Source: a phage
Strand: one strand, 5' to 3'
Sequence record: PZ402300.1
Length of the DNA stretch: 64,000 bases
A program made the position numbers and the translations under genes. Below the pieces are notes generated by a model that searched no databases, was not told where the DNA came from, and saw nothing but the letters and a program-made list of their open reading frames with translations. How positions within the stretch are numbered: position 1 is the stretch's first letter; every line of letters starts with the position of its first letter. Below, piece by piece: positions 1-40,396 of this stretch.

Positions 1-690
1 ATGAGTGAACTTACTAAGCAGCAGATTATTAATGCCTTACCAGCTAACTTCAAAAACAGTGTAACCCAGGAGTTGGTAGACACAATTAACAACATAACCC
101 AAGACCAACTGGTTGCTGAGTCCTTCCGTGAAAACTTTATCTCCTACTCTGGTGTAATGAAGGAAGGTAAGTTTAAGACTCAGGACTACATGAATGCAGT
201 TCAGTATGTGACTTACAAACACATGGGCTACTCAAATAAGGAAGCCTACTTCAAAACATTCCCTAACCGACAAGCAGAACTTGTAGCACGAGGAACCAGT
301 GAGAAAGATATTAGTGCTTATGTATCTGCTTACCACAGAGGTAAGCTAGTTAACCTCATCATGGAACAAAGTTTGGTTCCAGTGTGGATTGTGAACCAGG
401 ACAACTATCAGAAGGCAATCAACGTTCAGGTTGAACTGATGACTACAGCAGCAAGCGAGAAGGTAAGATGCGATGCAGCTAACTCTATCCTTACTCACTT
501 AGCTAAACCAAAAGATCAGGTAACAAATATCAATCTGGACTTGAGAGAAAACTCTGGATTGACTGACCTCAAGGCAACACTTGCTGCATTAGCTGAACAG
601 CAGATTAATGCAATCAATAGTGGTGTACCTACTAAAGAGGTTGCTGGTTCTAAACTAGTACGTGCAGATGAGGACATTACAGATGTCTGA
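1..690 (+). CDS. hypothetical protein immediately upstream of terminase large subunit; possible small terminase subunit (may extend upstream of window)
   Basis: 229-aa ORF starting at position 1; 3' end overlaps the terminase start by 8 nt; no diagnostic motif seen. Confidence 0.3.
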   Translation: MSELTKQQIINALPANFKNSVTQELVDTINNITQDQLVAESFRENFISYSGVMKEGKFKTQDYMNAVQYVTYKHMGYSNKEAYFKTFPNRQAELVARGTSEKDISAYVSAYHRGKLVNLIMEQSLVPVWIVNQDNYQKAINVQVELMTTAASEKVRCDAANSILTHLAKPKDQVTNINLDLRENSGLTDLKATLAALAEQQINAINSGVPTKEVAGSKLVRADEDITDV

Positions 691-2272
691 GTTAATTAAA
701 CAGGAACTTGATGAATGGCTAGACCAGGTGGATTACTCCCACCTTAATTCTTCTAACTATGTTCCTAGTCAGTTTGCTCTTACCTTTGCCAACTTTATTA
801 AGTTGGTTAATGGTAAAGAAGGTGAATCCAACAAAACACCACCAGTTCACCTGAAGATGCTGGATAAAATGATTAGCCCGAACCAGTATGTAGTTAATCT
901 GTGCTTCCGTGGAGCAGGTAAGACTGCTGTGTTCATGGAATACTTTACTTTGTTCCTGGCAGTATTCGGTCACTTACCAAGCCTGGGTAAAGTAGAAGGA
1001 ATGATTTACGTATCCGACTCAATGGATAACGGTGCTAAGTCTGCTCGTAAGAACATTGAGTTCCGTTACAAGAATAGTGAGTTCCTCCAGCAATGGATAC
1101 CTGAAGCTACCTTTACGGATAACCTACTGGAGTTTCGTAATGTAGAAGGGCATCGTCTAGGTGTTAAGCTGTTCGGTGCTAAAACAGGTCTTCGTGGTAC
1201 GAAGATATATGGTAAGCGTCCTACACTCTGTGTACTGGATGACTTGATTAGCGATGGTGATGCTAACTCCAAGACTAGCATGGAAGCTATTAAGGATACC
1301 GTCTATAAAGGTGTTAACCATGCTCTTGACCCAACCCGTCGTAAAGTAATATTCAATGGTACTCCCTTTAATAAGGAGGACATTATCATCGAAGCAGTAG
1401 AGTCTGGTGCATGGGATGTAAACGTATGGCCTGTATGTGAGAAGTTCCCTTGTAGTAGAGAAGAATTTCAGGGTGCATGGGACGACCGTTTCTCTTACGA
1501 CTATATCAAAGCTCAATACGATATGGCAGTTAAGACTGGTAAGCTGGCAGGCTTCTATCAGGAACTTATGCTACGTATTAGTTCTGAGGATGAGAGACTG
1601 GTTCAGGATAGCGAAATTAGGTGGTATAGCAGACAACAGCTATTAAGGATGAAGTCCTGCTATAACTATTACATTACAACCGACTTTGCTACTTCGGAGA
1701 AACAGACCAGTGACTACAGTGTCATATCAGTTTGGGCTTATAGTTCTAATGGAGATTGGTTCTGGGTTGATGGTGTGGCTAATCGTCAGCTTATGGATAA
1801 AAACTTTGATGACCTGTTCCGTCTGGTTCAAGAATACCAACCACAAAATGTTGGGGTCGAAATCACAGGTCAACAAGGTGGGTTCATTTCACTTCTTCAG
1901 AAGGAAATGATTAACCGTAATGTCTTCTTTAACTTTGCATCCTCCGAGGGTGGTAAGCCGGGTATCCGTCCTGTAACCTCTAAACTGTCACGTTTTAATC
2001 TGGTAGTTCCATGGTTCAAAGCTGGTAAGATGTACTTCCCGGAAGAGTTGAGAGATTCAACTATTATGGGTTTGTTCATGGGCCAAATTAAACTAGCTAC
2101 CATTAATGGAATCAAAGGTAAGGATGACTGTATTGATACTATCTCCATGCTGGGTTATCTCAATCCCTGGAAACCACAAGCAGGTATTACTCTGGTGGAT
2201 AACAAAGGTGACCCAATGTGGGATGATGAAGAAGAAGATAGTGTTAACCCACTTCGTTCATACATTGTGTGA
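683..2272 (+). CDS. terminase large subunit
   Basis: Walker A-like CFRGAGKT near N-terminus; acidic-residue-rich C-terminal half; position at head of structural module; start moved to ATG 683 behind GAGGA. Confidence 0.7.
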   Translation: MSELIKQELDEWLDQVDYSHLNSSNYVPSQFALTFANFIKLVNGKEGESNKTPPVHLKMLDKMISPNQYVVNLCFRGAGKTAVFMEYFTLFLAVFGHLPSLGKVEGMIYVSDSMDNGAKSARKNIEFRYKNSEFLQQWIPEATFTDNLLEFRNVEGHRLGVKLFGAKTGLRGTKIYGKRPTLCVLDDLISDGDANSKTSMEAIKDTVYKGVNHALDPTRRKVIFNGTPFNKEDIIIEAVESGAWDVNVWPVCEKFPCSREEFQGAWDDRFSYDYIKAQYDMAVKTGKLAGFYQELMLRISSEDERLVQDSEIRWYSRQQLLRMKSCYNYYITTDFATSEKQTSDYSVISVWAYSSNGDWFWVDGVANRQLMDKNFDDLFRLVQEYQPQNVGVEITGQQGGFISLLQKEMINRNVFFNFASSEGGKPGIRPVTSKLSRFNLVVPWFKAGKMYFPEELRDSTIMGLFMGQIKLATINGIKGKDDCIDTISMLGYLNPWKPQAGITLVDNKGDPMWDDEEEDSVNPLRSYIV

Positions 2273-2278
2273 GGAACC

Positions 2279-2989
2279 ATGCAAAAATTATCGGAAGTAT
2301 ATCGTGGCTTGGCACTAAGTACCTTAAAAGGTACTGGTGCAGTCACTGATAACAGATTAGATATTGAACCGGATAGTAAGCCAGAAATATTGGCTGCTAT
2401 TAATGAGGGGCTGGTACGTCTGCATAGTCGTTTCCCTCTTAGGACTAATAACTGCATTGTGGAAATGAAGGAAGGTCGTACTGATTATCCCCTTCAATCC
2501 AAATATGCTTACTCCAGATTTACTAAGCCTACTCTTGAGATTCAATATCCATACATCATGGATGGGTTCATGAAACCTTTCCAGGATGATGTTATTAAAA
2601 TCTTAAATGTGTTTGATAACTCAGGGAATCGACGTAGACTGAACGACGATTCAGACCCTCATGCAATCTTCACCCCAAGACCGGATACTATTCAGTGTAT
2701 GCGACCTCGACACTTCGAGGCACTTAACGTAACTTATCAAGCTAAGCACCCAGTGCTTACGGGTGACGAAGAACAGGAAGTTGATTTAGCAGATACGCTA
2801 ATGACAGCACTTCATAACTGGGTGGGTTATCGTTACCACACTGGTTTGAATACTCCAGAGGCTAATGCTAAGGCAGCAGAGTATCTGCAAACGTATGAAA
2901 GCATCTGTGGTGAGGTTGTTGATTACGACCTGGCTAATGGAAGTATTTCAATTACCGAAACTAAATTTGAACAACGAGGATGGCGATGA
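2279..2989 (+). CDS. virion structural protein (hypothetical)
   Basis: 236-aa ORF with GAGGA upstream, between terminase and tail genes. Confidence 0.4.
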   Translation: MQKLSEVYRGLALSTLKGTGAVTDNRLDIEPDSKPEILAAINEGLVRLHSRFPLRTNNCIVEMKEGRTDYPLQSKYAYSRFTKPTLEIQYPYIMDGFMKPFQDDVIKILNVFDNSGNRRRLNDDSDPHAIFTPRPDTIQCMRPRHFEALNVTYQAKHPVLTGDEEQEVDLADTLMTALHNWVGYRYHTGLNTPEANAKAAEYLQTYESICGEVVDYDLANGSISITETKFEQRGWR

Positions 2990-5724
2990 ACGCACATACC
3001 CCCTTTGATGCAAATCAGGATTGGTCCAATCCTTACTGCCAGAACAGTTCCAATGACCCAATGGTAGATGCACTACTTGGTAATGCTTACCATGTGGTTC
3101 GAACTGTTTACTGTAACCTGGGTAACCTTAAACTCATTTATGATTTCTTGAATAAATATGGAATGGTGTTAGGTGTTCAATCAGAAACTGAACTGAAGGC
3201 CATGCCTACCCGTGCATCTTATGTACGACTATATGGTTTTGATAACACCAATAAGAGAGTTGTTACAGACTATCTGTATGTAGATGGTGATCGTACAGGT
3301 GTAATCCCGGATGACCCTTCCGCTACTGGTTCCTGGATTCTGGTTGCCACTTCTAATTCAGATAGTGGTGGAGATGATGGCGAAGGTAAAGCATCACCAC
3401 CATACATTCCATACTCATATAATAATGGTTCTGCTATTGGTGGTGAAACCACTATACCAGTACCTGCTGGTACGGTTGGCGTACCGATGATTGTAATTGA
3501 TGGCTATACCAACTTAGTTGGTTATGGTTTTACTTACGATGCATCTACACTAACTGTTTCTCTGGCTCAACCATTGGAACCTGGTGATGAAGTACATCTG
3601 TTCTTGACTGGTACTCCAGCAGTTCCTAATAACCCTAATGTGTCTGATTGGGTTCAGATCAACTGGTTGTACAACGGTGGGTATGCTTCAGGTGGTGAGC
3701 AAGTAATTGCTATTCCTTACACATTTGAGTCAGTACCGGCTATCTATAAGAATGGAGAACGTTACTACGCAGGTTTAGCAGATAAGTCTTATGCAGTTGA
3801 TGCTGCTAACCAACGTATCCTTTTAACGGAACCATTGGAAACTAACGACCGTCTGATTATCACGATTGGTGGTGAGTCTACTACTCTGGTCATGTCTGAC
3901 CGTACTGTACAAGAAGTAGCACGCTCAACCAATGTTAAGGATTCAGAAGTAATTCTTAGCTCTAATACTTCCCAATACCTCAATGGTATGAAGGTAGTGT
4001 ATGACGTAGTATCTCAAAAGAGTTATGGTTTACCTTCATTGCCTACTAACGTCTATATCAATAAAGTAGAGAATGGTCAGTTAACTTATTCACCAGGTAA
4101 TACTACTGTTGACCTGTTACCTGTTCCTGATTCCGGTAAAGAAGTAAAAGATTTACTAGCAAGCACTAATGGTGCGAACAGTGTAGTAACTACTTCTGGA
4201 GATACTGTACAAGAATATATTAATAATTATATTCGTGTATTTCCTACAGTTGCAGCCGTACAGTCAGCTACGAATGTTCATGTAGGTGATACTATTCGAG
4301 TTCGGGCTTATCATGCTGGTGTTCCTTTCTCTGGTGCAGAGTGGGTTAAAACTTCTGAGATAGCTGCAATCAATCAGCATCCTGTTAACTTACAACGCTT
4401 AGCATTCACCGATAATCAGGGGTATGTGTACACACTGGTACAAGACCCAATGGCTGGTATTAACATTGAACAGATTGGTGGTCGCCCTTACAATTCTGCT
4501 GATTTACCAGGTTGTGATACTTCTGCTTTGTGGCTAGCTTTGCTTAACTACAAGCGTACTATTCCAACAAGTCGCTTAACAATTAACTTACCAGCAAGGG
4601 AATACTACTCATCTAAGGGCATCCCTGTATATCAATGGACTACTGTACGTTCTTCTGGAAAGTTTGATACTCAATTCAGAATTGGTAAAGGTTTATGGAC
4701 TGAGGCTGAGATACCTCCTACTGGCTTTTCCGGTGCTAACACATTCTGGAGTACTAAATCTTTCCATTTCTCCATTGTGCATCCAGAAAATATTCATGCT
4801 TCTAATGTTAAACTAGAGGGCATTGATTTCGTTACTAATGCCGGGGAATCAACTGATTATGGGCTGTATTTCCCATACTTTAATGACGTTATTGTCAGCA
4901 ATGTTCGTAACATCGGGCAGGATATTGGCTTATACTACATCAATGGTTACTCCAGTATTTTCCATCGACACTTATCTACTGCACGGACTAATACTCCAAC
5001 TACTGCTGGTAGTTGGAGTGTTCGTTGCGTAGAACGTGTAGTTGGTGGTGGATGTGGTACAAGTATAATTTTTTCCCAATGTGGACATACCGACTATATT
5101 TTAGGTTGGTCTTTAACTGGCATGACTTATACCCACCTAGACACCTGTTATACAGAAGGCACTAAGTCTGAAGTTGTTGGTAACTTTATCGATTGCCCTG
5201 ATTTGGTAATTACCAGTTATGGTATCGAACGATTAACTTCAGCAAGAACAGCAGCATTAATTAAAATTACTAATGGTTCTGTAGTAATTAATGGTATTAA
5301 TGCTGCATACGCCGTTAATGCTAATAATAATACTTTCTTACATATTGATGGTAACTGTAAGTTTTCTGTTAATGGGTTAGATATGAAATATCTAGTCAAT
5401 GGTCCTACCACTGGCTTAATTTATACTAGCTCTAGTGCAGAAGGTTTCATCAGCCCGGTCGTTTACCCTACTACAGGTACATATGCAAACATCCTAGGTG
5501 CTAACACATTTATGCTGGGTACTGGTGGTAACGTTACCCCACAGACTGCAAGTGCTGCTGCTGCTAACTTCAACTCCCTAACTGATGCTATAAACACAGT
5601 TGGTAAGTTCCAGGGCAAAGGGATTTATGATCGTACACTGGGGTGTGTAGTGTACGCGTCTGATTCTACTCCTGAATCAGTATGGCGAAATGGTACTGGT
5701 GCTGTTGCTTATACCCCAGCTTAA
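2980..5724 (+). CDS. tail protein (tail fibre or tube-like), 914 aa
   Basis: Large Gly/Ser/Thr-rich ORF in tail module; followed by a hairpin at 5731-5748. Confidence 0.45.
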   Translation: MAMNAHTPFDANQDWSNPYCQNSSNDPMVDALLGNAYHVVRTVYCNLGNLKLIYDFLNKYGMVLGVQSETELKAMPTRASYVRLYGFDNTNKRVVTDYLYVDGDRTGVIPDDPSATGSWILVATSNSDSGGDDGEGKASPPYIPYSYNNGSAIGGETTIPVPAGTVGVPMIVIDGYTNLVGYGFTYDASTLTVSLAQPLEPGDEVHLFLTGTPAVPNNPNVSDWVQINWLYNGGYASGGEQVIAIPYTFESVPAIYKNGERYYAGLADKSYAVDAANQRILLTEPLETNDRLIITIGGESTTLVMSDRTVQEVARSTNVKDSEVILSSNTSQYLNGMKVVYDVVSQKSYGLPSLPTNVYINKVENGQLTYSPGNTTVDLLPVPDSGKEVKDLLASTNGANSVVTTSGDTVQEYINNYIRVFPTVAAVQSATNVHVGDTIRVRAYHAGVPFSGAEWVKTSEIAAINQHPVNLQRLAFTDNQGYVYTLVQDPMAGINIEQIGGRPYNSADLPGCDTSALWLALLNYKRTIPTSRLTINLPAREYYSSKGIPVYQWTTVRSSGKFDTQFRIGKGLWTEAEIPPTGFSGANTFWSTKSFHFSIVHPENIHASNVKLEGIDFVTNAGESTDYGLYFPYFNDVIVSNVRNIGQDIGLYYINGYSSIFHRHLSTARTNTPTTAGSWSVRCVERVVGGGCGTSIIFSQCGHTDYILGWSLTGMTYTHLDTCYTEGTKSEVVGNFIDCPDLVITSYGIERLTSARTAALIKITNGSVVINGINAAYAVNANNNTFLHIDGNCKFSVNGLDMKYLVNGPTTGLIYTSSSAEGFISPVVYPTTGTYANILGANTFMLGTGGNVTPQTASAAAANFNSLTDAINTVGKFQGKGIYDRTLGCVVYASDSTPESVWRNGTGAVAYTPA

Positions 5725-5730
5725 TACCAA

Positions 5731-5748
5731 GCCCCTCTCCGGAGGGGC
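5731..5748 (+). terminator. GC-rich hairpin after tail gene, terminator-like
   Basis: gcccctc-tccg-gaggggc inverted repeat immediately after stop codon; weak U-tract. Confidence 0.35.
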
Positions 5749-5774
5749 ATTACATAGAATAAAACGAGGTACGT

Positions 5775-7226
5775 ATGAAAGACATGTTTGCTCAAGGTGG
5801 TTCTGGTTCTGTTGGAATCAAAACCAATAAACAAGCTATAGCTAGACACTTTGGTGTTAAGCAATCTGATGTTGTTTATTTCTCTCCCGGTGTTCCCCTT
5901 ACCGGTTACAAAGTTATCTATGACAAAGAATCACAGAGGGCTTACTCATTACCCACCGACATTGGTTCAGGGGTGACTGCTGTAAGCCTTAGCAAACAGG
6001 CTGTCCTGGTTCATTCAGCAGGTACAGTTGATTTGGGGGAACTGGCTGCTACACGAAGAGAGTTTGTGAGCTTATCCGACTCGTTTGCTACTGGTTTGGT
6101 AGTAAATACCCGAAATGAGCTTTTGATGCATAATGGTATAGGATATACCTACTTAGGTGCTCTACCGGTAACAATTACCGCAGGAACTAACCCTGTTGGT
6201 AACTCTGATTGGAAACCGCAGACAGACCCTAATTTAAGGGGAGAGTTATCTACATATGGCATTGGCACTGGTTCTCAGATGGTGGATGGTTTGGCAGTAG
6301 AGTCACTTAACCTAACCTCACCACAGACTAACATAACCCCCCTTGGGCGACATGCGTTAGGTAAAAATGCTAGTGGTCTGGGTATGATGTATCGGGTAGT
6401 GGAATCAGCCGAAGCTTCAGCTGACGGTACTGTCGTCATAGACCGTACAGACGGCAATAAGTTGGTACTTAACATCACTGATTCAATTGATGTTCGGTTT
6501 TTTGCTAACGGTATGAGAACTGATCAGCAAATTCTACAGGCGGCATTAGACTATGCAGGTAGTGTTGCTGGATTCTGTGAAGTTAAGATAACTCCAAAAA
6601 ATTTAAATGGGGATCCATGGGTATTTTCCGGGCTTCATATTGGGCCAAAAACTATATTAAGTGGTGCAGGTGGCTGGCTTAAGTTTGCCGATAACATCTG
6701 TACCAATGCCTCTACATCATATTACCTCATCGAGAATTTTGACTCAGATGACGTGCACATAAGAAACCTCTACATAGACGGAAACCAGGTTAACAATACC
6801 CAGTATCTGGTGGCTGACATCCTTACATTTGGTGGCAATAGGTGTTCACTTACAAATGTATCTTTAGTTAATGCTCCCGATTCTGGATTAATGTTCGCTA
6901 CAACTAAGAACTGCTGGGTTAATGGCCTCTATGTAGAAAACACCCGTGACCTCGGAATCTATTTATCTGCTGGTGTAGTTGGTGGTACACGTAACTGTGC
7001 TATGTCCAATCTGGTGTTACGTAACTGCGCTCATGGAGCTATGGGGTTCAAACGCTATGTTGCTGATATTATTGTGGATAATGTTATAGCTACAAACTGC
7101 GGCAATGGAATAACGTTTGAAGGGTTTGAATCGGAAACCCCAGGCATGAACCCATCTAACATCACTATGAGTAACATACGCCTTCGTGATATTGGTTTCG
7201 GTTACAGAAGCGTAAGTGCGGCTTGA
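5775..7226 (+). CDS. tailspike-like protein with right-handed beta-helix repeats, N-terminal fragment truncated by a frameshifting duplication
   Basis: Repeated N-x-x-(V/I)-x-N/G-C motifs typical of pectate-lyase-like beta-helix; good RBS GAGGT; premature TGA created at 7224-7226. Confidence 0.6.
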   Translation: MKDMFAQGGSGSVGIKTNKQAIARHFGVKQSDVVYFSPGVPLTGYKVIYDKESQRAYSLPTDIGSGVTAVSLSKQAVLVHSAGTVDLGELAATRREFVSLSDSFATGLVVNTRNELLMHNGIGYTYLGALPVTITAGTNPVGNSDWKPQTDPNLRGELSTYGIGTGSQMVDGLAVESLNLTSPQTNITPLGRHALGKNASGLGMMYRVVESAEASADGTVVIDRTDGNKLVLNITDSIDVRFFANGMRTDQQILQAALDYAGSVAGFCEVKITPKNLNGDPWVFSGLHIGPKTILSGAGGWLKFADNICTNASTSYYLIENFDSDDVHIRNLYIDGNQVNNTQYLVADILTFGGNRCSLTNVSLVNAPDSGLMFATTKNCWVNGLYVENTRDLGIYLSAGVVGGTRNCAMSNLVLRNCAHGAMGFKRYVADIIVDNVIATNCGNGITFEGFESETPGMNPSNITMSNIRLRDIGFGYRSVSAA

Positions 7227-7300
7227 ACCCATCTAACATCACTATGAGTAACATACGCCTTCGTGATATTGGTTTCGGTTACAGAAGCGTAAGTGCGGCT
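7147..7300 (+). repeat. perfect 77-bp tandem direct duplication (7147-7223 and 7224-7300) inside the tailspike gene
   Basis: Two identical adjacent 77-nt copies read directly from the sequence; 77 is not a multiple of 3. Confidence 0.9.
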
Positions 7301-7936
7301 GAACGAGCTATCAGTTTCAACTACGCCAGTGGTATTCGTATCAATAACCTAAGTGTTCAGAATTGCTCTGGAGTTGGTATATTCTTTGGTGCTAATACCA
7401 ATACCGGCATTTTTATTAATGGTGCAAATTTAACTGGGTATGCTTCTAACCCACAAATAGCAACAAGTGGTGTACCGAACAATGATGGCATCCAATGCAA
7501 TGGTGCATCAGGATTTGAGCTTGTAAACGTTAACCTGGAAGGTTTCGCTAGATATGCTGCGTACTTCTTAAATTGCAGCAACGGTAGTGTGATCGGTGGT
7601 CGTTGGACTAATGCCCAGGCTAGCGGATATAATGCGTACAACGGCGCACGTGTAAATGCAGCCTGTAGTTTCACTAAGTTTACACCTGAGTTTATTAGTG
7701 GTGTTAGTGGCACGGATCTAGAGTGGTTTAACGGTGCAACGGGGATCACTAAAGATTTTATCTTAAACAATGCTACAGGACCGGCTAAGTATGGGTACGT
7801 CGCGGTATCTGGCCCTACCCCTGTAGCTACAGTAATACCCCGCTTCATAGGGCAAGAAGTATGGAGTATCAGCGCTAACTCATGGTGGAAGTCCCATGGC
7901 CTAACCTCCTCTGATTGGAAACAGATATCTAACTAA
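7223..7936 (+). pseudogene. C-terminal part of the same tailspike gene, out of frame because of the 77-bp duplication; only a TTG start in the ORF track
   Basis: Begins with the same 26 residues that end the upstream ORF; removing one repeat copy gives a single 694-aa ORF 5775-7936. Confidence 0.6.
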
Positions 7937-7937
7937 G

Positions 7938-7962
7938 CTAAGCCCCCAATTCGGGGGCTTTT
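7938..7962 (+). terminator. rho-independent terminator
   Basis: gccccc-aattc-gggggc hairpin followed by TTTT. Confidence 0.75.
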
Positions 7963-8179
7963 CTTATATAGAGTTTACTGTTTGCATTACCCTAACGGAT
8001 ACTGCTGTTAGGGTAATTACTTGCCCAAAGATATTAAGCATACCTAACTGAATACCATTCCCCATGGATTGATGCCAGACACTATGTCTGGATGTACCTC
8101 ATCATACTAAGTATTATCTAGGAGTCATCTTATGATATGACCCTATTGGGGACTCTAACTACACAACTACGGTAATATT

Positions 8180-8509
8180 ATGAATGAATCTGGTGAACTG
8201 CTCCTAGTCAGACTGGAGGAACGATTGAAGACTCTGTTTGAGAACCAGACAAGGGAAAGACAGGACCGTGAGAAACTGGAGGAAACTCTGGTAGAACTAC
8301 GGGATTCAATCAATGACATAGGTAATAGATTAAAGAATGTGGAGGATAGCTTAGCTAAGAATGAACCTACTATTGAAGAGTTCATTACCATTAAGCATAA
8401 AGTTGTTGGTGCTGGAATTTTCGGTAAGTGGGTGTGGGCTGGGGCAGGTGCAATTATTGGTGTATTGGCTGCTGCAAGACGGGAGATATTCGCATGGTTC
8501 GCAGGCTAA
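8180..8509 (+). CDS. coiled-coil protein with C-terminal transmembrane helix, first gene of lysis cluster
   Basis: Charged heptad-like N-terminal region, C-terminal hydrophobic GAGAIIGVLAAA segment. Confidence 0.4.
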   Translation: MNESGELLLVRLEERLKTLFENQTRERQDREKLEETLVELRDSINDIGNRLKNVEDSLAKNEPTIEEFITIKHKVVGAGIFGKWVWAGAGAIIGVLAAARREIFAWFAG

Positions 8510-8754
8510 AAAGAAAGGTAGAGTTAGTACCTAACTGGAAAAGATGCTGGAAATGGGCATCCATTCAGATTAGTACACTTGGTTTAATTATGTTTTCTGC
8601 CATAGATATCATACAGCCAATGATGACAGGATTACCTCGTCACATCCTGGAAGATATCCCCCATGGTTCCAATATTGCAATTGCACTGTTTGCCTTAAAT
8701 ATTGTAGGCAGATTAATACGTTTCCGACCAAAGGAAGATTCACATGAAAGCTAA
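8494..8754 (+). CDS. putative holin (two predicted TM helices)
   Basis: 86 aa with two hydrophobic segments; GGGAGA RBS before ATG 8494; directly precedes endolysin. Confidence 0.45.
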   Translation: MVRRLKRKVELVPNWKRCWKWASIQISTLGLIMFSAIDIIQPMMTGLPRHILEDIPHGSNIAIALFALNIVGRLIRFRPKEDSHES

Positions 8755-9379
8755 ACAGAAACTTGCTGCGAAAGGTGGTGCAGTGGGAGGAGTTGTCGCT
8801 GCTATCCTGGGGGCAGTGTTTTATATGGAAGGGGGTTATGTAAACAATCCTCGTGACCCAGGTGGGGAAACTAATCATGGTATTACTCAATCAGTTGCTA
8901 AGACTCATAAAGAAGTACTAGCTACTGAATACGGTTGGGATGGTTCTATGAAAGGTTTATCTAAAGAGATGGCTGCTGAGATATACATTGATGACTACGT
9001 ACTTAAGCCTAACTTCGTAGCCTTTGCTGATATATCTCCTGCTGTAACACACAAGCTGGTAGATGCTGGTGTTAACACTGGTGTAACCCGTCCTGCTAAG
9101 TGGTTGCAGTTATCTCTTAATGAGATGTCCCGTAATGGCAAAGACTACCCTAAAATACAGGTTGATGGTAAAGTCGGTACAAGTACTGTTAATGCATATA
9201 AAGCATTACAGAAAAAACGAGGCAAAGTTGCAGCATGTCAGGTAATGATTAAGTTACTTGATGCCAAACAACTGAACCACTACACCTCATTAAACATGCC
9301 AGACTTTACGTATGGTTGGGTAGCTAACCGAATAGGCAATGTGCCACTGGAGGCATGTAATGAAGATGCTAATCACTAA
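8744..9379 (+). CDS. endolysin, GH108-type N-acetylmuramidase with N-terminal signal-anchor (SAR-like) and C-terminal peptidoglycan-binding region
   Basis: EGGYVNNPRDPGGETNHGIT motif characteristic of GH108; hydrophobic N-terminus GGAVGGVVAAILGAVF. Confidence 0.7.
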   Translation: MKAKQKLAAKGGAVGGVVAAILGAVFYMEGGYVNNPRDPGGETNHGITQSVAKTHKEVLATEYGWDGSMKGLSKEMAAEIYIDDYVLKPNFVAFADISPAVTHKLVDAGVNTGVTRPAKWLQLSLNEMSRNGKDYPKIQVDGKVGTSTVNAYKALQKKRGKVAACQVMIKLLDAKQLNHYTSLNMPDFTYGWVANRIGNVPLEACNEDANH

Positions 9380-9866
9380 GGGTTGGCCTTATCTTCTGGT
9401 GGTGGTCCTAGGGGCCACCATTTACTTTTGGGGAAATTCCAATGGGCAGTCTACTGTTCAAAAGAAATGGGATGACCAAAAGGTTGAAGATCAGAAGGCA
9501 ATACAAAAAATACAGGACAAATACAATGCTCTCCAAAGAAACCATAGTTATGAAGTCGGGTTACTCACTTCCCGGTTGCAGACGGCTGAGAGTAATTACG
9601 CAAGCGAGCTTGCTCGCGTTAGCAGTGATTATGACAGCCGGATGCAACAGTCTGAAAGACGAGCATCGGTATATAAACGTCAAGCCGAAGCCGGAACCTT
9701 TGAGTGCAGAAGTCTTGCAAGCCATGCAGCCAGACTCGACAACAGTCTTGAAGAAGGCAGACGTTTGGTTGAAGAACTCAGGGCAACTGTTAGACTCCGT
9801 GACAGCCAACTAATTGAGTTGGGTAAACAGATTCAGGCTGACCGTAAACTTTTTGAACAGGAATAA
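9360..9866 (+). CDS. i-spanin (Rz-like)
   Basis: N-terminal TM helix followed by long charged coiled-coil region; GGAGG RBS before ATG 9360; follows endolysin. Confidence 0.55.
9550..9813 (+). CDS. o-spanin (Rz1-like lipoprotein) embedded in +1 frame inside the i-spanin gene; start uncertain (ORF track 9442)
   Basis: Lipobox-like LAVIMTAGC followed by Pro-rich sequence; fully embedded in another frame. Confidence 0.5.
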   Translation: MKSGYSLPGCRRLRVITQASLLALAVIMTAGCNSLKDEHRYINVKPKPEPLSAEVLQAMQPDSTTVLKKADVWLKNSGQLLDSVTAN

Positions 9867-9868
9867 CT

Positions 9869-12139
9869 ATGGAACACCAAGACACTTTTAAGCCTTTACC
9901 AGACCCGGCTCAATCAGAGAAGTTAACGGACTGGAAGAAGGAACCAAGTATCCAATTACTGAAAGGTGATTTGGAATCAGCTAAACCTGCTCACGATGCA
10001 ATCATGGCTCAGATTCGTGAGTGGAATGATTTGATGGAAGTTAAGGGTAAGGCTAAACCCCCAAAGGTTAAAGGACGTTCACAAGTCCAACCTAGACTGG
10101 TTCGCCGTCAGGCAGAGTGGCGTTATGCACCATTGTCTGAACCATTCCTCTCATCCAACAAACTCTTTAAGGTAACTCCCGTTACTTTTGAAGATGAGTT
10201 AGCTGCACGACAGAATGAACTAGTTCTTAACTACCAATTCCGTACCCAGCTTAATAAAGTAAAACTGGTAGATGATTACGTACACAGTGTAGTGGATGAT
10301 GGTACAGGTATTGCTCGTATTGGTTGGGAACGTAAGACTGTTAAGATTAAAACGGAAACTCCAGTATTCCAGCTGTATCCAATTGAGAACCAGGAACAAG
10401 CAGACATTCTTCAGCAGGCTCTTCAGCTTCAGGCAGAGAATCCTCGTGAATATGATGAAACAATGCCCGAAGATATTAAGGAAGCTGTTAACTACTTCAA
10501 TGAAACTGGAGAAGCTACCTATGCAATCCAGACTGGCGTTACTGAAGTAGAGGTAGAGAAGGCACTGGTTAACAGACCTACTGTTGAAATGCTTAACCCA
10601 AATAACGTAGTTATTGACCCAAGCTGTAATGGTGATTTGGACAAGGCTCTGTATGCAGTTATCTCATTTGAGACTTGCAAAGCAGACCTAATGAAGAACA
10701 AAGACCGTTACCACAATCTGGATAAGATTGACTGGGAAAGTTCCAGTCCTATGACTGATCCAGACCATGAAAGTAAAACTCCTGGTGATTTCCAGTTTAA
10801 GGATGCACTTCGTAAAAAAGTCATTGCTTATGAATACTGGGGATTCTATGACATCAATGATGACGGTTCACTTGAACCTATTGTTGCTACCTGGATTGGT
10901 TCTACTCTTATTCGTATGGAGAAGAACCCATTCCCTGACGGTAAGTTACCGTTGGTAGTTGTTCCCTATATGCCACGTAAACGTGAACTCTATGGTGAAG
11001 CTGATGCTGAACTGTTAGGGGATAACCAAGCAATTCTTGGTGCAACTATGCGTGGGATGATTGACCTGTTAGGTCGAAGTGCAAATGGTCAACGTGGTTA
11101 TCCTAAAGGGATGTTAGATACCCTTAACCGTCGTCGATATGACGATGGGCAGGATTATGAATACAACCCAATGCAGGGTAATCCTAGTCAGGCCATTATG
11201 GAGCACAAGTTCCCTGAGTTACCTCAGTCGGCAATAGTAATGACTCAGATGCAAAACCAGGAAGCAGAAGCACTAACAGGTGTTAAAGCATTTTCTGGTG
11301 GTGTAACTGGTGAAGCTTACGGTGATGTTGCTGCTGGTATTCGTGGTGTACTAGATGCAGCATCAAAACGTGAAATGGCAATCCTTCGTCGATTAGCTAA
11401 AGGCATGGCAGACATTGGTACTAAGATTTGTGCAATGAATGCTGTGTTCTTATCTGAGAAAGAAGTGGTACGTATTACTAATGAACAGTATGTAGAAATT
11501 AACCGAGAAGACCTTAAAGGTAATTTCGATATTGAAGTTGATATTAATACTGCTGAAATTGATAACCAGAAATCTCAGGATTTGAGCTTCATGGTTCAAA
11601 CATTAGGTAATACGGTTGATCAGACTATTACGTTATCTATTGTAGCTAAGATTGCAGAACTTAAACGTATGCCAGACCTCGCACATGAATTACGTACATG
11701 GAAACCACAACCAGACCTTATGGAAGAACAGCTTAAGCAGTTGGCAATTCAGAAAGCCCAGCTTGAGAATGAAGAGCTGAAAAGTAAGATTGCACTCAAT
11801 AATGCTAAGGCTAAAGAAGCTATTTCTAGTGGTGACCTTAAAGACCTGGATTATCTGGAACAGGAATCTGGTACTAAACATGCTCGTGATATGGAAAAAC
11901 AAAAAGCACAATCCCAAGGAAACCAGAACCTTCAGATAACTAAGGCGTTGACAACACCTACTAAAGAAGGTGAAACTACCCCCAACATATCTGCTGCTGT
12001 CGGATATAACGCTTTGACTAACGGGAACTCTTTACAGGAACGTGACTTAGCTGCACAGCAAGACCCGACTTATTCACTTAGTTCCCAGTATTATGACCCT
12101 AGCCAAGACCCAGCATCGGCTCTTGGTATGAACTTATAA
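9869..12139 (+). CDS. portal protein
   Basis: 756-aa ORF upstream of scaffold-like and capsid genes; size and position only. Confidence 0.55.
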
Positions 12140-12152
12140 GGCAGACCTTCAC

Positions 12153-12497
12153 ATGAGTAAAGAATCAACAATCGCAGGACTGGAACATCGACTGGAAGCT
12201 GCTAAAGGTGCAGTTGCACATGCAGAGGATGTACGTAAACTTCTGGAAAACCCACTGTTCCGTAAAGTAATCCTTCGTCAGTTCTGTGTGGAAGATTGTG
12301 CACGTTACGTGCAGGAGTCTGGTGACCCACTGCTTGAACCTAATAACCGTGCAGATGCACTTAACATGGCTCAAGCTGCTGGTCACTTACGTCGTTGGCT
12401 CGACCTCGCCATTCGTATGGGTGAGAATGAAGCTGACGTTATTCTACAGGTAGAAGAAGAACTTGATGCAGTTCGTGCTGAACCTGAAGACGAATAA
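12153..12497 (+). CDS. hypothetical protein (head module)
   Basis: 114-aa ORF between portal and scaffold-like gene. Confidence 0.4.
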   Translation: MSKESTIAGLEHRLEAAKGAVAHAEDVRKLLENPLFRKVILRQFCVEDCARYVQESGDPLLEPNNRADALNMAQAAGHLRRWLDLAIRMGENEADVILQVEEELDAVRAEPEDE

Positions 12498-12516
12498 TTA
12501 ACCGGAGATATTTCCT

Positions 12517-13737
12517 ATGACTACGGAAGCTGCAACCACAGCTTCCGACATTCTCGCAATGTCGGATGATGAGATTCTGAATATGGAAGCCCCAGCTATT
12601 ATTGCTGAGGAAGACACTTCCACTCAGAACAACCCAGAAACCAACGGCGTACAGACTCCTGATGAAGAAGTTGACCCCTCTGCTGTTGAAGACCTACCAA
12701 CCAAAGAAACTTCCCCTGAAACTGAACCAGTTGAAGATGATTCAGCAAATTCTTTAACTTCTGATAAAGTTGATGATAAAGTTGTTGACACAGAAGTTGA
12801 TAGTAACGGCAAGCCGATTACTAAAGCTGAACCTTCTACTACTGAACCAGGCCAGGAACAGAAAGAAGAAGGCAAACAGTCTGAAGGTCTGCCTGCTGAC
12901 TTCAACTATAAGGAAGGTTATGAGAAGTTGATGGCTCCTTTTAAAGCTAACGGCAAGATGATTACTCCCCGTTCTCCGGAGGAGGCCATTAGCCTGATGC
13001 AGATGGGTGCTAACTATACTCGTAAGATGCAAGAACTTCAGCCGTACCGTAAGGTAATGCTGATGCTACAGAACAACGGTTTAATGGATGAGGAAAAACT
13101 TTCTTTCCTGATTGACCTGGATAAGAAGAATCCTGAAGCCATTAAAAAGTTGTTGAAAGACTCTGGTACAGATCCTCTGGATTTTAATCCAGAAGAGGAA
13201 ATTAATTACCAGGGTGGCAAACACCGTGTTACAGACACCGAAGCAGATTTTGCAACCGAAATTGACGACTTAAAGTCTACTCAAGAAGGACAAGCTACAT
13301 TAGGTGTTATTAGCTCGACATGGGATGCTGCCAGTAAAGATGCTCTTTATCATAATCGTGGCTTACTCCAGACTATTCACGAACAGCGTGAGAATGGTAT
13401 TTATGACACCATTGCTAACGAAGTGAATCGTCTCCAGATGTTAGGCCAGATTCCGGTAGGTACTCCATTTATTCAGGCTTATAACCACGTTGGTAACCTC
13501 CTTGCACAGCAGGGTGCATTTAACCAAGTGGCTAAGCCTGAACCGGTACAAGCAGTTAAACCAGCAGTTCAGCCGGTAGTGCGTGTAGCACGACCTAAGC
13601 AGACTCTGGCTAATAACGAGCAAGCTAAAGCAGCTTCCCTTAATCGGGCTGCTACACGTAAAGCTACACCTATTGTAAACCCACTCGCTATGAGTGATGA
13701 AGATTTCGCTAAACTCCCAGTACCGGGTAGTCTTTAA
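12517..13737 (+). CDS. putative scaffolding protein
   Basis: Strongly acidic, low-complexity N-terminal half; directly upstream of major capsid protein gene. Confidence 0.4.
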   Translation: MTTEAATTASDILAMSDDEILNMEAPAIIAEEDTSTQNNPETNGVQTPDEEVDPSAVEDLPTKETSPETEPVEDDSANSLTSDKVDDKVVDTEVDSNGKPITKAEPSTTEPGQEQKEEGKQSEGLPADFNYKEGYEKLMAPFKANGKMITPRSPEEAISLMQMGANYTRKMQELQPYRKVMLMLQNNGLMDEEKLSFLIDLDKKNPEAIKKLLKDSGTDPLDFNPEEEINYQGGKHRVTDTEADFATEIDDLKSTQEGQATLGVISSTWDAASKDALYHNRGLLQTIHEQRENGIYDTIANEVNRLQMLGQIPVGTPFIQAYNHVGNLLAQQGAFNQVAKPEPVQAVKPAVQPVVRVARPKQTLANNEQAKAASLNRAATRKATPIVNPLAMSDEDFAKLPVPGSL

Positions 13738-13753
13738 ACAGGAATGAGATGAT

Positions 13754-14956
13754 ATGTTAAACTATAACGCTCCAATTGACGGTCAGAAATCTAGCATTGA
13801 TGGTGCTGGTTCCGACCAGATGAATACCTATTACTGGCTGAAGAAGGCTATTATTCAGTCCCGTAAAGACCAGTATTTCATGCCTCTGGCTAACACCGTT
13901 AACATGCCGAAGAACTACGGTAAGACTGTTAAGGTGTATGAATACGTTCCTCTGCTCGATGACAAGAACATTAACGACCAGGGTATTGATGCTAATGGTG
14001 CTACCATTGTTAATGGTAACCTGTACGGTTCTTCCAAAGACGTTGGTAACATCACTTCTAAACTGCCCCTGCTGTCAGAAAATGGTGGCCGTGTTAACCG
14101 TGTAGGCTTTACTCGTATTGCTCGTGAAGGCTCTATTCATAAGTTCGGTTTCTTCTACGAATTTACCCAAGAGTCCCTGGACTTTGATTCTGATGACCAA
14201 CTGAAAGAACACCTGTCTCGTGAACTGATGAACGGTGCTGTACAGTTGACTGAGGCAGTTCTCCAGAAAGACCTGCTGGCTGCTGCTGGTACTGTACTGT
14301 ATGCAGGTGCTGCTGTTTCTGATGCTACCATCACTGGTGAAGGTGATACCCCGTCTGTAGTTTCTTATAAGAACCTGATGCGTCTTGACCAGATTCTTAC
14401 TGAGAACCGTACTCCGACCCAGACTACTATCATCACTGGTTCTAAGCTGACAGATACCAAAGTACTTGGTGGTACTCGTGTAATGTACGTTGGTTCTGAA
14501 CTGGTTCCAGAACTGAAAGCGATGAAAGACCTGTTCGGTAACAAAGCATTCATCGAAGTTCAGCACTATGCTGATGCTGGTACTCTGATGAACGGTGAAA
14601 TCGGTTGTATTGATAAGTTCCGTATTATCCAGGTTCCTGAGATGCTTCACTGGGCAGGTGCTGGTAAAAAGGTTGGCACTAACCCAGGCTACCGTTCCTC
14701 TATGGTTAGTGGTGAAGAGCACTACGACGTATTCCCGATGCTGGTAGTTGGTGACGACTCCTTCTCTACCATTGGCTTCCAGACTGATGGTAAGTCTGTT
14801 AAGTTCACCATCATGACTAAGATGCCTGGTAAAGAAACTGCTGACCGTAATGACCCGTATGGTGAAACTGGATTCAGTTCTATCAAGTGGTACTATGGTA
14901 TTCTGGTTAAACGCCCAGAACGTCTGGCTCTGATTAAGACTGTTGCTCCTCTGTAA
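13754..14956 (+). CDS. major capsid protein
   Basis: 400-aa ORF after scaffold-like gene and followed by a strong terminator hairpin. Confidence 0.6.
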
Positions 14957-33232: not shown

Positions 33233-33470
33233 TTAGTAGCTTTAACGCAGCTAACGAGGCTAGGTCGTCAAACTACTATCACTAGTGTGCTAAGCGACGG
33301 TGGGTTGTTAGCCTGATAGTAGTAAGACGTAGGTTTGGATTTTTAAGTGTTACCTTCACTAGCGAAATTCCCATCGAGGGGAATAACAATACAATAGCAG
33401 CCACTGGACTGTCTTACCAGTGTTGTCTTTAGAGTGCGATGCAATCAGGACTATGTTACTGCTAAATGAG

Positions 33471-33544
33471 TACCCACTACTGGATTTGAACCAGTGACCT
33501 TCCGATTATTAGTCGGTTGCTTTCCCCGTCTAAGCTAAGTGGGC
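33471..33544 (-). tRNA. tRNA, 74 nt, no encoded CCA; anticodon loop CUAAUAA (anticodon read as AAU)
   Basis: 7-bp acceptor stem, D-arm GCUU/AAGC, T-arm ACUGG-UUCAAAU-CCAGU folded by hand. Confidence 0.6.
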
Positions 33545-33549
33545 ATAAA

Positions 33550-33625
33550 TGGTTACCCGGACAGGATTCGAACCTGTGTCCTAGTTGGTTTACTAGTGGG
33601 GCTTTACCACTAAGCCTACCGGGTA
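33550..33625 (-). tRNA. tRNA-like gene with encoded CCA; anticodon arm atypical, isotype undetermined
   Basis: Perfect acceptor stem UACCCGG/CCGGGUA, D-arm GGCU/AGCC, T-arm ACAGG-UUCGAAU-CCUGU; anticodon stem is palindromic CUAG with 8-nt loop UAAACCAA. Confidence 0.5.
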
Positions 33626-38242: not shown

Positions 38243-40396
38243 TTACTTGCCAGCGAAGCGTTTAGCCACGGTGACCATTACGGTTGCATTCAATTCATCA
38301 TCTGGTAATGGATTAGCCAGTTTCTTATTGAATGAGTGGACGGCTTGCTGTACTCGGGCAAAATCCCAACCACTGTCAACCAATGCCAGTGCGTACTTAA
38401 TCATTTGATTATTACGATTACCGGTAGCAATACGACTAGCGAACCAACGCTCCAGATTATCCAACGACTGTACTTCCTTCATCTGGTTCTGGAACTGCTC
38501 GTTCTTACTAGTACGAGGAATAAAGTCACGCACGTCCAACAGATTTGCTTCAAGATTGTAATGATAAGAACCAGTCTCACAGGACATCCACTTCTTGGCT
38601 CGCTGGTTAGCAGATTCATCCGTTTCGAACGGTAGCCAAGACATAACGTTATTCATGAACTCTTTGTATTCCTCAGTGTCTAGGTGCAACTCATAGTTCA
38701 TTGGAATAATCAGTCGGAAGCGGTTCTCTTCATCAGAATGACGTTTAGTGGTATAGGTCATGAACTTATATTCCTTCATCAGTTCATGGCACGTATGCAG
38801 TGGCACTCCACCATCACAGTCAATAACAATCATGTTAAATCCTGGAATAACGTTCTCTTCAGAACGGTGTCCATTCTTCATGTGATGGTTTACCCAGTGC
38901 ATACCGGGAGCTTGGGTTAACACATGCAACTGGTCGAACGGTACACGTTCACCAATGTAGTCATAAGCAAAGCTATCACTATATGCCACTATCATCTCAT
39001 TGATGTCAGTTTCTTTCAGAGTCTCACCACGGAAGAACTCAATACCTTCGTTGAAGGTTTTCTTAATGATGATGTGCTGTTTGTAGCCCCATGCTGTAGC
39101 AAGGGTCATCATTTCATTACGAGCTGCATTGCCACTCTTATAGAACGGTAACGACTCCACCAAGTCAGCATGAGTTACTTCTTTACCTACAGAAGCAATG
39201 TACTTAGCCAGCTTCACATAAGCCTTCTCACGATTGAGGATTGTCTGAAATGCTGTTCCAGATTCTTCTACAAGTAGAATTGCTTGTTTAAGATGAGACA
39301 TCTCAATGAATGAACTTTGATCAACAAACGCCAGTGCACCTGCCAGCTTAAGTGCTTTGAAATAACGGTGGGAAATTTCAGCTTTACGAATATCTTCGTG
39401 GTCAGCCATAGCTTCTGCTTGTTTCTCACAATCAATTTTGTAAGCAATCAGAGCAATACCCACTGCATCTTCTACAACCATCTTAAAGCCGAATAAGTTT
39501 GGATCAGCCAGACTATGGAAATGGTTAGCCCACTTACCAAGAGTCTGTACGTTATCTTGTTTAATCAGGTTACGGTAGATTTCTTCCGGGGTTAGTGTTG
39601 CATGTGCTCTCTTGTCTAAGTGACCAATGGCAAACAGACAGCGACGTGCATACCCTATATCAAGAAAGCCATAGAACTGGTCCTCGGTCTGACCACCATC
39701 CAGTAGCTTACTTGGCGTACCAAACAGCAACAGGTTAGTTGGAGTTTTGCCATCCAATTCTTCGCCACGAATGCTTTCAGCAGTATTCTTGGTTAGTTTC
39801 TGTTTTACTTTTCCCTGGTCATATAACTCCAGGAACAAAGTTAGTACATCCATGTTAGCCAACAGGTTCGAACCAATTTCATCAATCTGAAGGTTAATTG
39901 AACCACACCCAGCCATTAACAGTTTATGGCGTAGCTGTTTAACTGCTGGTGGAGTACCGGAGTCAAATGTAAACGGATATGCTCCGGCACGTTTATACTC
40001 TGCTTCAACTTTATCAAACTCATCATTCTGGTCTGTACCCTGACGAGCAGCACGTTCGTTAGCAATCTTCCATAAACGGTCATTTGCAATGACGGGCATG
40101 GTGTCTTCCATAAAACGTTTACGGAATCCAGACATAAACCCGTCTTCAATGATATTTACTGAGTGACCTTTACCGAAACCAGATGTAGCCAACGCAATAG
40201 CGTAGATGTTTACCGGCAGGTCACCACGGTCTTTAGTTACAATGGTTGCACCCATGCAGGATGCCATTTTAGCCAAGAAGTAGGCTACTTCGACACGGAA
40301 GAATCCCCGGTCATTATTCTGGGTTTTATTGCAGAGCACATCTACGATTTCTTCAATCGCCGGATGATGCACTACTCCGGTAAGGTCAATACTCAT
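38243..40396 (-). CDS. putative DNA primase-like replication protein
   Basis: 717-aa ORF in replication operon; start chosen at ATG overlapping upstream stop (ATGA); assignment by size and context. Confidence 0.4.
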   Translation of the reverse strand: MSIDLTGVVHHPAIEEIVDVLCNKTQNNDRGFFRVEVAYFLAKMASCMGATIVTKDRGDLPVNIYAIALATSGFGKGHSVNIIEDGFMSGFRKRFMEDTMPVIANDRLWKIANERAARQGTDQNDEFDKVEAEYKRAGAYPFTFDSGTPPAVKQLRHKLLMAGCGSINLQIDEIGSNLLANMDVLTLFLELYDQGKVKQKLTKNTAESIRGEELDGKTPTNLLLFGTPSKLLDGGQTEDQFYGFLDIGYARRCLFAIGHLDKRAHATLTPEEIYRNLIKQDNVQTLGKWANHFHSLADPNLFGFKMVVEDAVGIALIAYKIDCEKQAEAMADHEDIRKAEISHRYFKALKLAGALAFVDQSSFIEMSHLKQAILLVEESGTAFQTILNREKAYVKLAKYIASVGKEVTHADLVESLPFYKSGNAARNEMMTLATAWGYKQHIIIKKTFNEGIEFFRGETLKETDINEMIVAYSDSFAYDYIGERVPFDQLHVLTQAPGMHWVNHHMKNGHRSEENVIPGFNMIVIDCDGGVPLHTCHELMKEYKFMTYTTKRHSDEENRFRLIIPMNYELHLDTEEYKEFMNNVMSWLPFETDESANQRAKKWMSCETGSYHYNLEANLLDVRDFIPRTSKNEQFQNQMKEVQSLDNLERWFASRIATGNRNNQMIKYALALVDSGWDFARVQQAVHSFNKKLANPLPDDELNATVMVTVAKRFAGK

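What the first reader, a model, noticed from the sequence alone, without database searches (positions are those of the whole stretch)
7147..7300. Perfect 77-bp tandem duplication frameshifts a beta-helix tailspike gene
Positions 7147-7223 and 7224-7300 are identical. The duplication creates a TGA at 7224-7226 and shifts the remaining 237 codons out of frame; deleting one copy restores a single 694-aa ORF (5775-7936) with continuous beta-helix repeats. This is either an assembly artefact, a recent inactivating mutation in a likely receptor-binding protein, or a reversible duplication acting as an on/off switch.
Basis: seen in the sequence. Interest (0 to 1): 0.7.

Follow-up and report, generated by a model that had tools for sequence, protein, structure and literature searches.

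The report
Leftover 77-bp assembler overlap in tailspike
The perfect 77-base repeat that breaks this phage's tailspike gene is almost certainly not biology: it looks like the end-overlap that the SPAdes assembler leaves on circular contigs, kept by mistake when the genome was rotated to start at a chosen gene.

Summary
Window 7147-7223 and 7224-7300 are identical. The second copy creates TGA at 7224-7226. Deleting one copy restores a 694-aa ORF.

The gene is the gp63.1-position tailspike of a Gamaleyavirus, a G7C/N4-like E. coli podophage. It has the G7C/CBA120 N-terminal module and a right-handed beta-helix.

The duplication is best explained as a finishing artefact:
- The length equals SPAdes' default largest k (77). 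Published phage assemblies report identical 77-bp contig ends from SPAdes.
- The junction has no microhomology.
- It is the only perfect tandem duplication of period 20-400 in the 64 kb.
- The window starts exactly on an ATG, at the same gene as GenBank PV252060, so the sequence was rotated after assembly.
- A 99%-identical relative, two more distant DNA relatives and 17 protein-cluster representatives all have one copy.
- The out-of-frame 3' part shows no decay.
- The closest GenBank homologue (phage ZH4) still carries a 127-bp k-mer end overlap inside the same gene, abutting the same nucleotide.

A real, very recent duplication cannot be excluded without reads (about 7%). A programmed switch has no support. 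Interest is low, except as a correction: the gene should be annotated as one 694-aa ORF.

The parts
7147..7223 (+). Copy 1 of the 77-bp unit. Under the artefact model this is the last 77 nt (the final k-mer) of the original circular contig.
   Evidence: Identical to 7224-7300. Read in the native frame it encodes (M)NPSNITMSNIRLRDIGFGYRSVSAA.
7224..7300 (+). Copy 2 of the 77-bp unit. Under the artefact model this is the first 77 nt of the original circular contig. Its first three bases give the premature TGA in the upstream frame.
   Evidence: The relatives ZH4, SRR22424573_4878 and SRR21977507_105 have only one copy.
5775..7226 (+). 5' fragment of the tailspike gene as it stands (483 aa). It holds the gp63.1/CBA120-type N-terminal module and the first part of the beta-helix.
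   Evidence: ORF list. PDB 4qnl E = 2e-54 over residues 1-148. PHROG tail spike families.
7223..7936 (+). 3' fragment of the tailspike gene in its native frame (237 codons counted from a fortuitous TTG). It holds the rest of the beta-helix and the C-terminal domain.
   Evidence: All 5 nucleotide differences from the 99% relative in this part are synonymous in this frame.
2980..5724 (+). Neighbouring 914-aa gp66-type tail protein. It is the second receptor-binding protein of the module and is given as context.
   Evidence: phrog_12242 tail protein, E = 1e-256 over residues 3-432. Synteny with L002, L006 and PV252060.
1..690 (+). 229-aa ORF upstream of the large terminase gene. The window begins exactly on its ATG, which marks a sequence rotated after assembly.
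   Evidence: GenBank PV252060 has the same start (CDS 1..690). In the uncut Logan contig L006 this ATG is internal, at position 1335.

Best explanation
The duplication is a genome-finishing artefact. The phage genome was assembled from short reads with SPAdes at its default largest k of 77. A genome that assembles as a circle comes out as a linear contig whose first and last 77 nt are the same k-mer. The contig was then rotated to begin at the ATG of the gene upstream of the large terminase, and one copy of the overlap was not removed. The old contig ends were therefore joined head to tail inside the tailspike gene, leaving two perfect adjacent copies. Because 77 is not a multiple of 3, the join produces an apparent frameshift and a TGA. 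The real phage most likely carries one copy and an intact 694-aa tailspike. Shown directly: the repeat and its exact length, the blunt junction, the rotated start, the single copy in all relatives, and the lack of decay. Inferred: which assembler was used and the failure to trim.
For: 1. The length is exactly 77 with 100% identity. [quoted passage not shown] The same 77-bp end identity is reported in bioRxiv 10.1101/2022.04.05.487141, which used SPAdes -k 21,33,55,77, and in PMC8767329.
2. The junction has no microhomology. The ancestral sequence has a 5-nt direct repeat TGAAC spaced 76 nt apart, which would favour a 76-nt slippage product, not the observed 77 (read).
3. It is the only perfect tandem duplication of period 20-400 in the 64 kb.
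4. Window position 1 is the A of an ATG. GenBank PV252060, a record marked circular, starts at the same gene with identical CDS coordinates 1..690 and 2279..2989. The ATG is internal in uncut contigs. The sequence was therefore rotated after assembly.
5. One copy is present in a relative 99.2-99.6% identical over 14.3 kb (SRR21977507_105). Its intact 694-aa protein is 689/694 identical to the repaired protein. One copy is also present in SRR22424573_4878 and in ZH4. All 17 protein-cluster representatives carrying this module have it once.
6. There is no decay. All 5 differences downstream of the repeat against the 99% relative are synonymous in the native frame. Over the whole gene, 28 codons differ: 23 synonymously and 5 by an amino-acid change.
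7. The closest GenBank homologue shows the same class of artefact in the same gene. The ZH4 record (OM355495) has its first 127 nt equal to its last 127 nt, and 127 is another standard SPAdes k. Its break lies inside the tailspike gene. Joining its ends untrimmed gives a frameshift, and trimming restores the ORF.
Against: No reads are available, so the single-copy state of this particular phage is not observed directly. The assembler and its k are inferred, not known. I also infer, rather than know, that window position 1 is position 1 of the source record. G7C-type phages carry two receptor-binding proteins, so loss of one is not necessarily lethal on every host, and a real mutant could have been sequenced.
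Confidence: 0.9

Rival explanations
1. The duplication is a real, very recent 77-bp tandem duplication fixed in the sequenced phage stock. It truncates the gp63.1-type tailspike at residue 483. The phage would then rely on the gp66-type protein or on a host that does not need this spike.
For: The sequence as given contains it. Tandem duplications do arise in phage stocks (general knowledge). A second receptor-binding protein of 914 aa lies next door. The absence of decay is also compatible with a very recent event.
Against: A natural event landing on exactly 77 nt, the SPAdes default k, would be a coincidence. The junction is blunt although a TGAAC microhomology pair lies 76 nt apart at the same place. 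The break falls in a stretch that is invariant across homologues, in high-confidence helix rungs. In G7C the gp63.1 activity is essential for infecting its host (PMC10743462). A relative 99% identical is intact. The sequence shows signs of post-assembly rotation.
Confidence: 0.07
2. The duplication is a programmed or recurrent reversible switch. Gain and loss of a copy would turn one of the two tailspikes off and on, as at a contingency locus.
For: A 77-bp perfect direct repeat would be lost readily by recombination, so if real it would revert (general knowledge). The contig break in the ZH4 record abuts the same nucleotide, which could hint at a site-specific instability.
Against: No relative shows two copies or any variation in copy number. 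The unit is not a short repeat array. No recombinase or other dedicated machinery was found next to the gene. The ZH4 junction k-mer ends at the homologue of 7147, which is not what the same 77-bp duplication would produce in a k = 127 graph (my reasoning, not a computation).
Confidence: 0.02

Closest known systems
Terminal k-mer overlap of circular contigs from SPAdes (k = 77 by default for ~150-nt reads; 127 for longer reads)
   Same: The length is exactly 77 nt, the copies are 100% identical, the setting is a phage genome that assembles as a circle, and genes span the contig ends (PMC9409062).
   Different: The two copies here are adjacent inside the sequence instead of at its two ends. That is what results when the contig is rotated without removing one copy.
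GenBank OM355495.1, Escherichia phage ZH4 (Kayfunavirus) tailspike
   Same: The 3' 0.9 kb of the gene is 90% identical in nucleotides. The record has one copy of the unit. It retains an untrimmed k-mer overlap (127 nt) inside the same gene, ending at the homologue of window 7147.
   Different: It is a T7-like phage with a different N-terminal adaptor. Its overlap sits at the record ends, so the gene is split across the ends rather than frameshifted internally.
Phage G7C gp63.1 tailspike (PDB 4QNL) and the G7C gp66/gp63.1 branched adsorption module
   Same: The gene order is the same: terminase, structural protein, gp66-type protein, then the gp63.1-type protein. The N-terminal ~150 residues are homologous (E = 2e-54; P0105).
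   Different: The receptor-modifying part differs. G7C gp63.1 is an esterase (PF00657 on P0105; PMC10743462), whereas this protein has a right-handed beta-helix.
Beta-helix tailspikes CBA120 TSP1-4, HK620 and Sf6
   Same: The predicted fold of the 92%-identical homologue matches them (Foldseek E down to 2e-18, probability 1.00).
   Different: Sequence identity is low (11-20%). Substrate and catalytic residues were not determined here.
Contingency loci and phase variation by repeat copy number
   Same: A change in copy number that is not a multiple of 3 switches the reading frame.
   Different: Those loci use arrays of short units whose copy number varies among strains. Here a single 77-nt unit is duplicated once in one sequence only.

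Membership tests
SPAdes k-mer end-overlap artefact carried into a rotated genome | The repeat length equals the assembler's final k (55, 77, 99 or 127) | tested here: met
   The length is exactly 77 nt. A 77-nt overlap is documented for default SPAdes phage assemblies.
SPAdes k-mer end-overlap artefact carried into a rotated genome | The two copies are perfectly identical and directly adjacent, with no junction microhomology or filler | tested here: met
   The copies are 77/77 identical and the identity run at offset 77 is exactly 77.
SPAdes k-mer end-overlap artefact carried into a rotated genome | The sequence was re-oriented after assembly | tested here: met
   The window starts on the ATG of the ORF upstream of terL, exactly as GenBank PV252060 does. 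That ATG is internal in uncut contigs. I infer, rather than know, that the window start is the record start.
SPAdes k-mer end-overlap artefact carried into a rotated genome | No sequencing read spans the copy1|copy2 junction, and depth over the unit is not doubled | not testable with these tools
   No reads are available. The exact proteins of this phage are absent from the 15-billion-protein collection, so no independent assembly of the same sample could be found.
G7C gp63.1 / CBA120-type tailspike | N-terminal gp63.1/TSP attachment module | tested here: met
   PDB 4qnl E = 2e-54 (residues 1-148), 4oj5 E = 9e-50, 5w6f E = 3e-42.
G7C gp63.1 / CBA120-type tailspike | Right-handed parallel beta-helix body | tested here: met
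   The AF2 model of P0001 (92% identical) has pLDDT 85, and above 95 over roughly residues 250-620. The top Foldseek hits are tailspike beta-helices. Pfam PF13229 is below its cut-off on this protein itself (20.6 against 25.9 bits).
G7C gp63.1 / CBA120-type tailspike | Homotrimer with polysaccharide-degrading or polysaccharide-modifying activity | not tested
   Only a monomer was modelled, and no catalytic residues were assigned.
Repeat-mediated phase-variable (contingency) gene | Copy number of the repeat varies among close relatives or within populations | tested here: not met
   One copy in 3 DNA relatives, including one 99% identical, and in 17 protein-cluster representatives. None has two copies.

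The most novel reading that the evidence does not exclude
The duplication is real, and the nucleotide at window 7147 is a recurrent breakpoint in this tailspike module. The contig break of the unrelated phage ZH4 abuts the same base. Under this reading, both stocks contain subpopulations rearranged or mutated at the codon of the invariant Met458, and the 77-bp duplication would be a reversible off-state of one of two receptor-binding proteins.
Probability: 0.03. Interest if true: 0.6.

Novelty: not a real feature. Interest (0 to 1): 0.1.

Why it matters
The value is curation, not discovery. As it stands, the sequence would be annotated with two truncated tail proteins, or a pseudogene, in the main host-range determinant. 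That would mislead receptor-binding-protein catalogues, host-range prediction and any claim of a defective tailspike. Removing 77 nt restores a 694-aa tailspike that is 99% identical to one found in an independent assembly. The result also gives a simple screen: perfect tandem duplications of 55, 77, 99 or 127 nt in 'complete' phage genomes that start on a gene. The same check flags a second public record, ZH4, whose tailspike is split by an untrimmed 127-nt overlap.

Tried and rejected
Searches for the source sample or another assembly of it all came back empty:
- The exact 483-aa product is not on record.
- The junction 26-mer, the single-copy right junction and a 29-mer internal to the unit have no exact match in IMG/VR. 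The internal 29-mer also has none in JGI metagenome contigs or GTDB genome contigs.
- The repaired 694-aa, the truncated 483-aa and the neighbouring 914-aa proteins are absent from the 15-billion-protein collection.
- There is no megablast match in complete E. coli genomes or in PLSDB plasmids.
- The phage itself is not in the INPHARED collection. Its best whole-genome relatives are 93-94% identical.

I checked whether phage nithesis, which has the same record start, carries a similar k-sized tandem repeat. It has none.

I considered slippage between microhomologies. TGAAC/TGAAC spaced 76 nt apart would give a 76-nt unit. GGC/GGC spaced 77 nt apart would put an A, not the observed T, at 7223. 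Neither reproduces the sequence.

I considered translational coupling at the TTGA overlap at 7223-7226, which would produce both halves of the protein. I rejected it because no Shine-Dalgarno motif lies upstream and the overlap follows automatically from the duplication.

I considered that SPAdes might cut circles at a lexicographically extreme k-mer, which could explain the ZH4 coincidence. I rejected this by inspection, since neither end k-mer starts with an extreme prefix. I did not compute it genome-wide.

A literature search for a paper on ZH4 gave nothing useful.

Full report
**1. The observation.** Window 7147-7223 and 7224-7300 are identical over 77 nt. Comparing every base with the base 77 positions further on gives an identity run of exactly 77, so the junction is blunt and shares no extra base at either boundary. 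The upstream frame (ORF 5775-7226, 483 aa) ends at the TGA formed by the first three bases of copy 2. The rest of the gene continues in its own frame as ORF 7223-7936. Deleting one copy gives 2085 nt, which is 694 codons plus a stop. No other perfect tandem duplication with a period of 20-400 nt occurs anywhere in the 64 kb.

**2. What the gene and the genome are.** The window is a Gamaleyavirus, a G7C-like member of the N4-like Schitoviridae. It is 93-94% identical over 20 kb to phages EC1-UPM, St11Ph5 and nithesis, and it is not itself in the phage collection.
- The local gene order is a 229-aa ORF, the large terminase, a structural protein, a 914-aa gp66-type tail protein, and then the gene in question. 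This is the position of G7C gp63.1.
- Residues 1-150 match the N-terminal module of G7C gp63.1 (PDB 4qnl, E = 2e-54) and of CBA120 TSP1, TSP3 and TSP4.
- An AlphaFold model of a 92%-identical homologue (P0001) has a mean pLDDT of 85, and above 95 over roughly residues 250-620. It is a right-handed beta-helix whose best structural matches are CBA120 TSP1-4, HK620 and Sf6 tailspikes.
- The duplicated 26 residues (458-483, MNPSNITMSNIRLRDIGFGYRSVSAA) lie in high-confidence rungs of that helix. Apart from three positions near its end, that stretch is invariant in the eight-sequence alignment.

**3. Relatives all have one copy.**
- The closest GenBank match to the 3' 0.9 kb, the Kayfunavirus ZH4, is 90% identical and has a single unit.
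- A Logan contig from SRR22424573 (72,210 bp) encodes an intact 692-aa protein, 92% identical, with a single unit.
- A Logan contig from SRR21977507 is 99.2-99.6% identical to window 1-14361. It encodes an intact 694-aa protein that is 689/694 identical to the repaired protein, again with one unit.
- Among the protein-cluster representatives that carry this module, 17 have the peptide once and none has it twice.
- The repaired gene differs from the 99% relative at 29 nucleotides in 28 codons: 23 synonymous and 5 amino-acid changes. All 5 differences downstream of the repeat are synonymous in the native frame.

The 'out-of-frame' part therefore shows no decay. The event is either extremely recent or not present in the phage at all.

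**4. Why an artefact is the best explanation.** Four independent lines point the same way.
- *Length.* The repeat is exactly 77 nt, which is SPAdes' default largest k. [quoted passage not shown] It adds that this was seen with circularly permuted genomes, that genes spanned the extremities, and that one copy had to be removed. Two unrelated papers report the same 77-bp end identity, and one of them states SPAdes -k 21,33,55,77.
- *Rotation.* The window begins on the A of the ATG of the 229-aa ORF upstream of terL. GenBank PV252060 (phage nithesis, marked circular) begins at the same gene, with identical CDS coordinates 1..690 and 2279..2989. In uncut contigs this ATG is internal and has an ordinary intergenic region upstream. 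The sequence was therefore rotated after assembly. Rotating a contig that still carries its k-mer overlap places the two copies head to tail at the old ends, which is exactly the structure seen.
- *Junction.* There is no microhomology at the junction. The ancestral sequence offers a TGAAC direct repeat 76 nt apart, which would give a 76-nt slippage product. It also offers a GGC pair 77 nt apart, which would give a different junction base. Neither reproduces the sequence.
- *Biology.* The break falls in a conserved structural gene. In G7C the enzymatic activity of this gene's counterpart is essential for infecting its host (PMC10743462).

**5. An in-family demonstration, and an unexplained coincidence.** The GenBank record of ZH4 (OM355495.1, 39,496 bp, 'linear complete genome') has its first 127 nt identical to its last 127 nt, and 127 is another standard SPAdes k. 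The record is cut inside its tailspike gene, and the C-terminal 272 aa is annotated as a separate hypothetical protein. Joining its ends without trimming produces a frameshift of the same kind. Trimming restores an intact ORF. This shows that untrimmed k-mer overlaps do survive into public 'complete' phage genomes.

In gene orientation the ZH4 overlap corresponds to window 7021-7147. ZH4 record position 1 is thus the homologue of T7147, the first base of the window's unit. By chance this would happen about 4 times in 39,496.

I cannot explain it with the tools available. My conjecture is that both assembly graphs had a persistent junction at the ATG codon of Met458. The window's end k-mer starts just after A7146, and ZH4's ends just before G7148. 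The junction could come from a real minor variant or from a sequence-specific Illumina error. The site follows a GGC motif and nearby inverted repeats, which are the two triggers named in PMC3141275. I also conjecture that a circular edge is cut where the last such junction was collapsed. This is inference only. I reasoned, without computing it, that the same 77-bp duplication in a ZH4 subpopulation would not give the observed k = 127 end k-mer. The coincidence therefore does not favour a shared real duplication.

**6. Rivals.** A real, very recent duplication fixed in the sequenced stock cannot be excluded without reads. The phage has a second receptor-binding protein, and loss of one spike need not be lethal on every host. 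I put this at about 7%. The main reason is that a natural event would have to land on exactly 77 nt with a blunt junction, in a sequence that shows other marks of manual or automated rotation. A programmed on/off switch has no support (about 2%). There is no copy-number variation in any relative, no repeat array and no dedicated machinery nearby.

**7. What could not be done.** No independent assembly or read set of this phage could be found. The junction, single-copy-junction and internal-unit patterns have no exact match in IMG/VR, and the internal-unit pattern has none in JGI metagenome contigs or GTDB genome contigs. The exact proteins are absent from the large protein collection. There is no match in E. 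coli genomes or plasmids. The decisive test is therefore outside these tools: search the reads for the junction 26-mer, or size a PCR product across 7100-7350.

**8. Verdict.** It is a leftover 77-nt assembler overlap at the point where a circular contig was closed and rotated. The gene should be read as a single 694-aa gp63.1-position beta-helix tailspike. Interest as biology is low. The practical value is correcting the annotation and flagging the same class of error in ZH4.

Noticed in passing
L001 / L007 (GenBank OM355495.1, phage ZH4; record 1-127 and 39370-39496): The first 127 nt of the record equal the last 127 nt, an untrimmed k = 127 overlap. The 'linear complete genome' is cut inside its tailspike gene, and the C-terminal 272 aa is annotated as a separate hypothetical protein. 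Trimming and circularising restores one ORF.
   Followed up: yes
window 7146-7148 (codon of Met458) and its homologue in ZH4: The end k-mers of two independent assemblies of unrelated phages abut the same nucleotide, T7147. By chance this is about 4 in 39,496. It may reflect a shared minor variant or a sequence-specific sequencing error at this codon. It remains unexplained.
   Followed up: partly
window 7024-7936; P0004-P0016, P0014, P0023: The beta-helix module of this tailspike is shared at 56-92% amino-acid identity across very different phages. They include N4-like podophages, phages on 40-47 kb contigs whose module carries a different N-terminal adaptor (as in the T7-like ZH4), the 158-kb Shigella phages MK-13 and ChubbyThor, and E. 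coli chromosomal proteins with a P22-type head-binding domain. This is a clear case of horizontal exchange of a receptor-binding module onto different N-terminal adaptors.
   Followed up: partly
window 2980-5724 versus L002 6728-9949 and PV252060 2986-6072: The neighbouring gp66-type tail protein keeps a conserved N-terminal ~430 residues (phrog_12242), but its length varies between close relatives (914, 912, 1073 and 1028 aa). Both receptor-binding proteins of the module are therefore mosaic.
   Followed up: no
window 33470-33625 (- strand): There is a tRNA-Ile (anticodon AAT) followed 5 nt later by a tRNA-like gene for which ARAGORN reports a two-base anticodon loop anomaly. Phage nithesis annotates the equivalent pair as tRNA-Ile and tRNA-OTHER.
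   Followed up: no
window 1-690 and 662-2272: The 229-aa ORF overlaps the start of the large terminase ORF by about 25 nt in another frame. The terminase aligns only to positions 273-726 of the 760-position phrog_38 profile, so some family members carry an N-terminal extension that is missing here.
   Followed up: no
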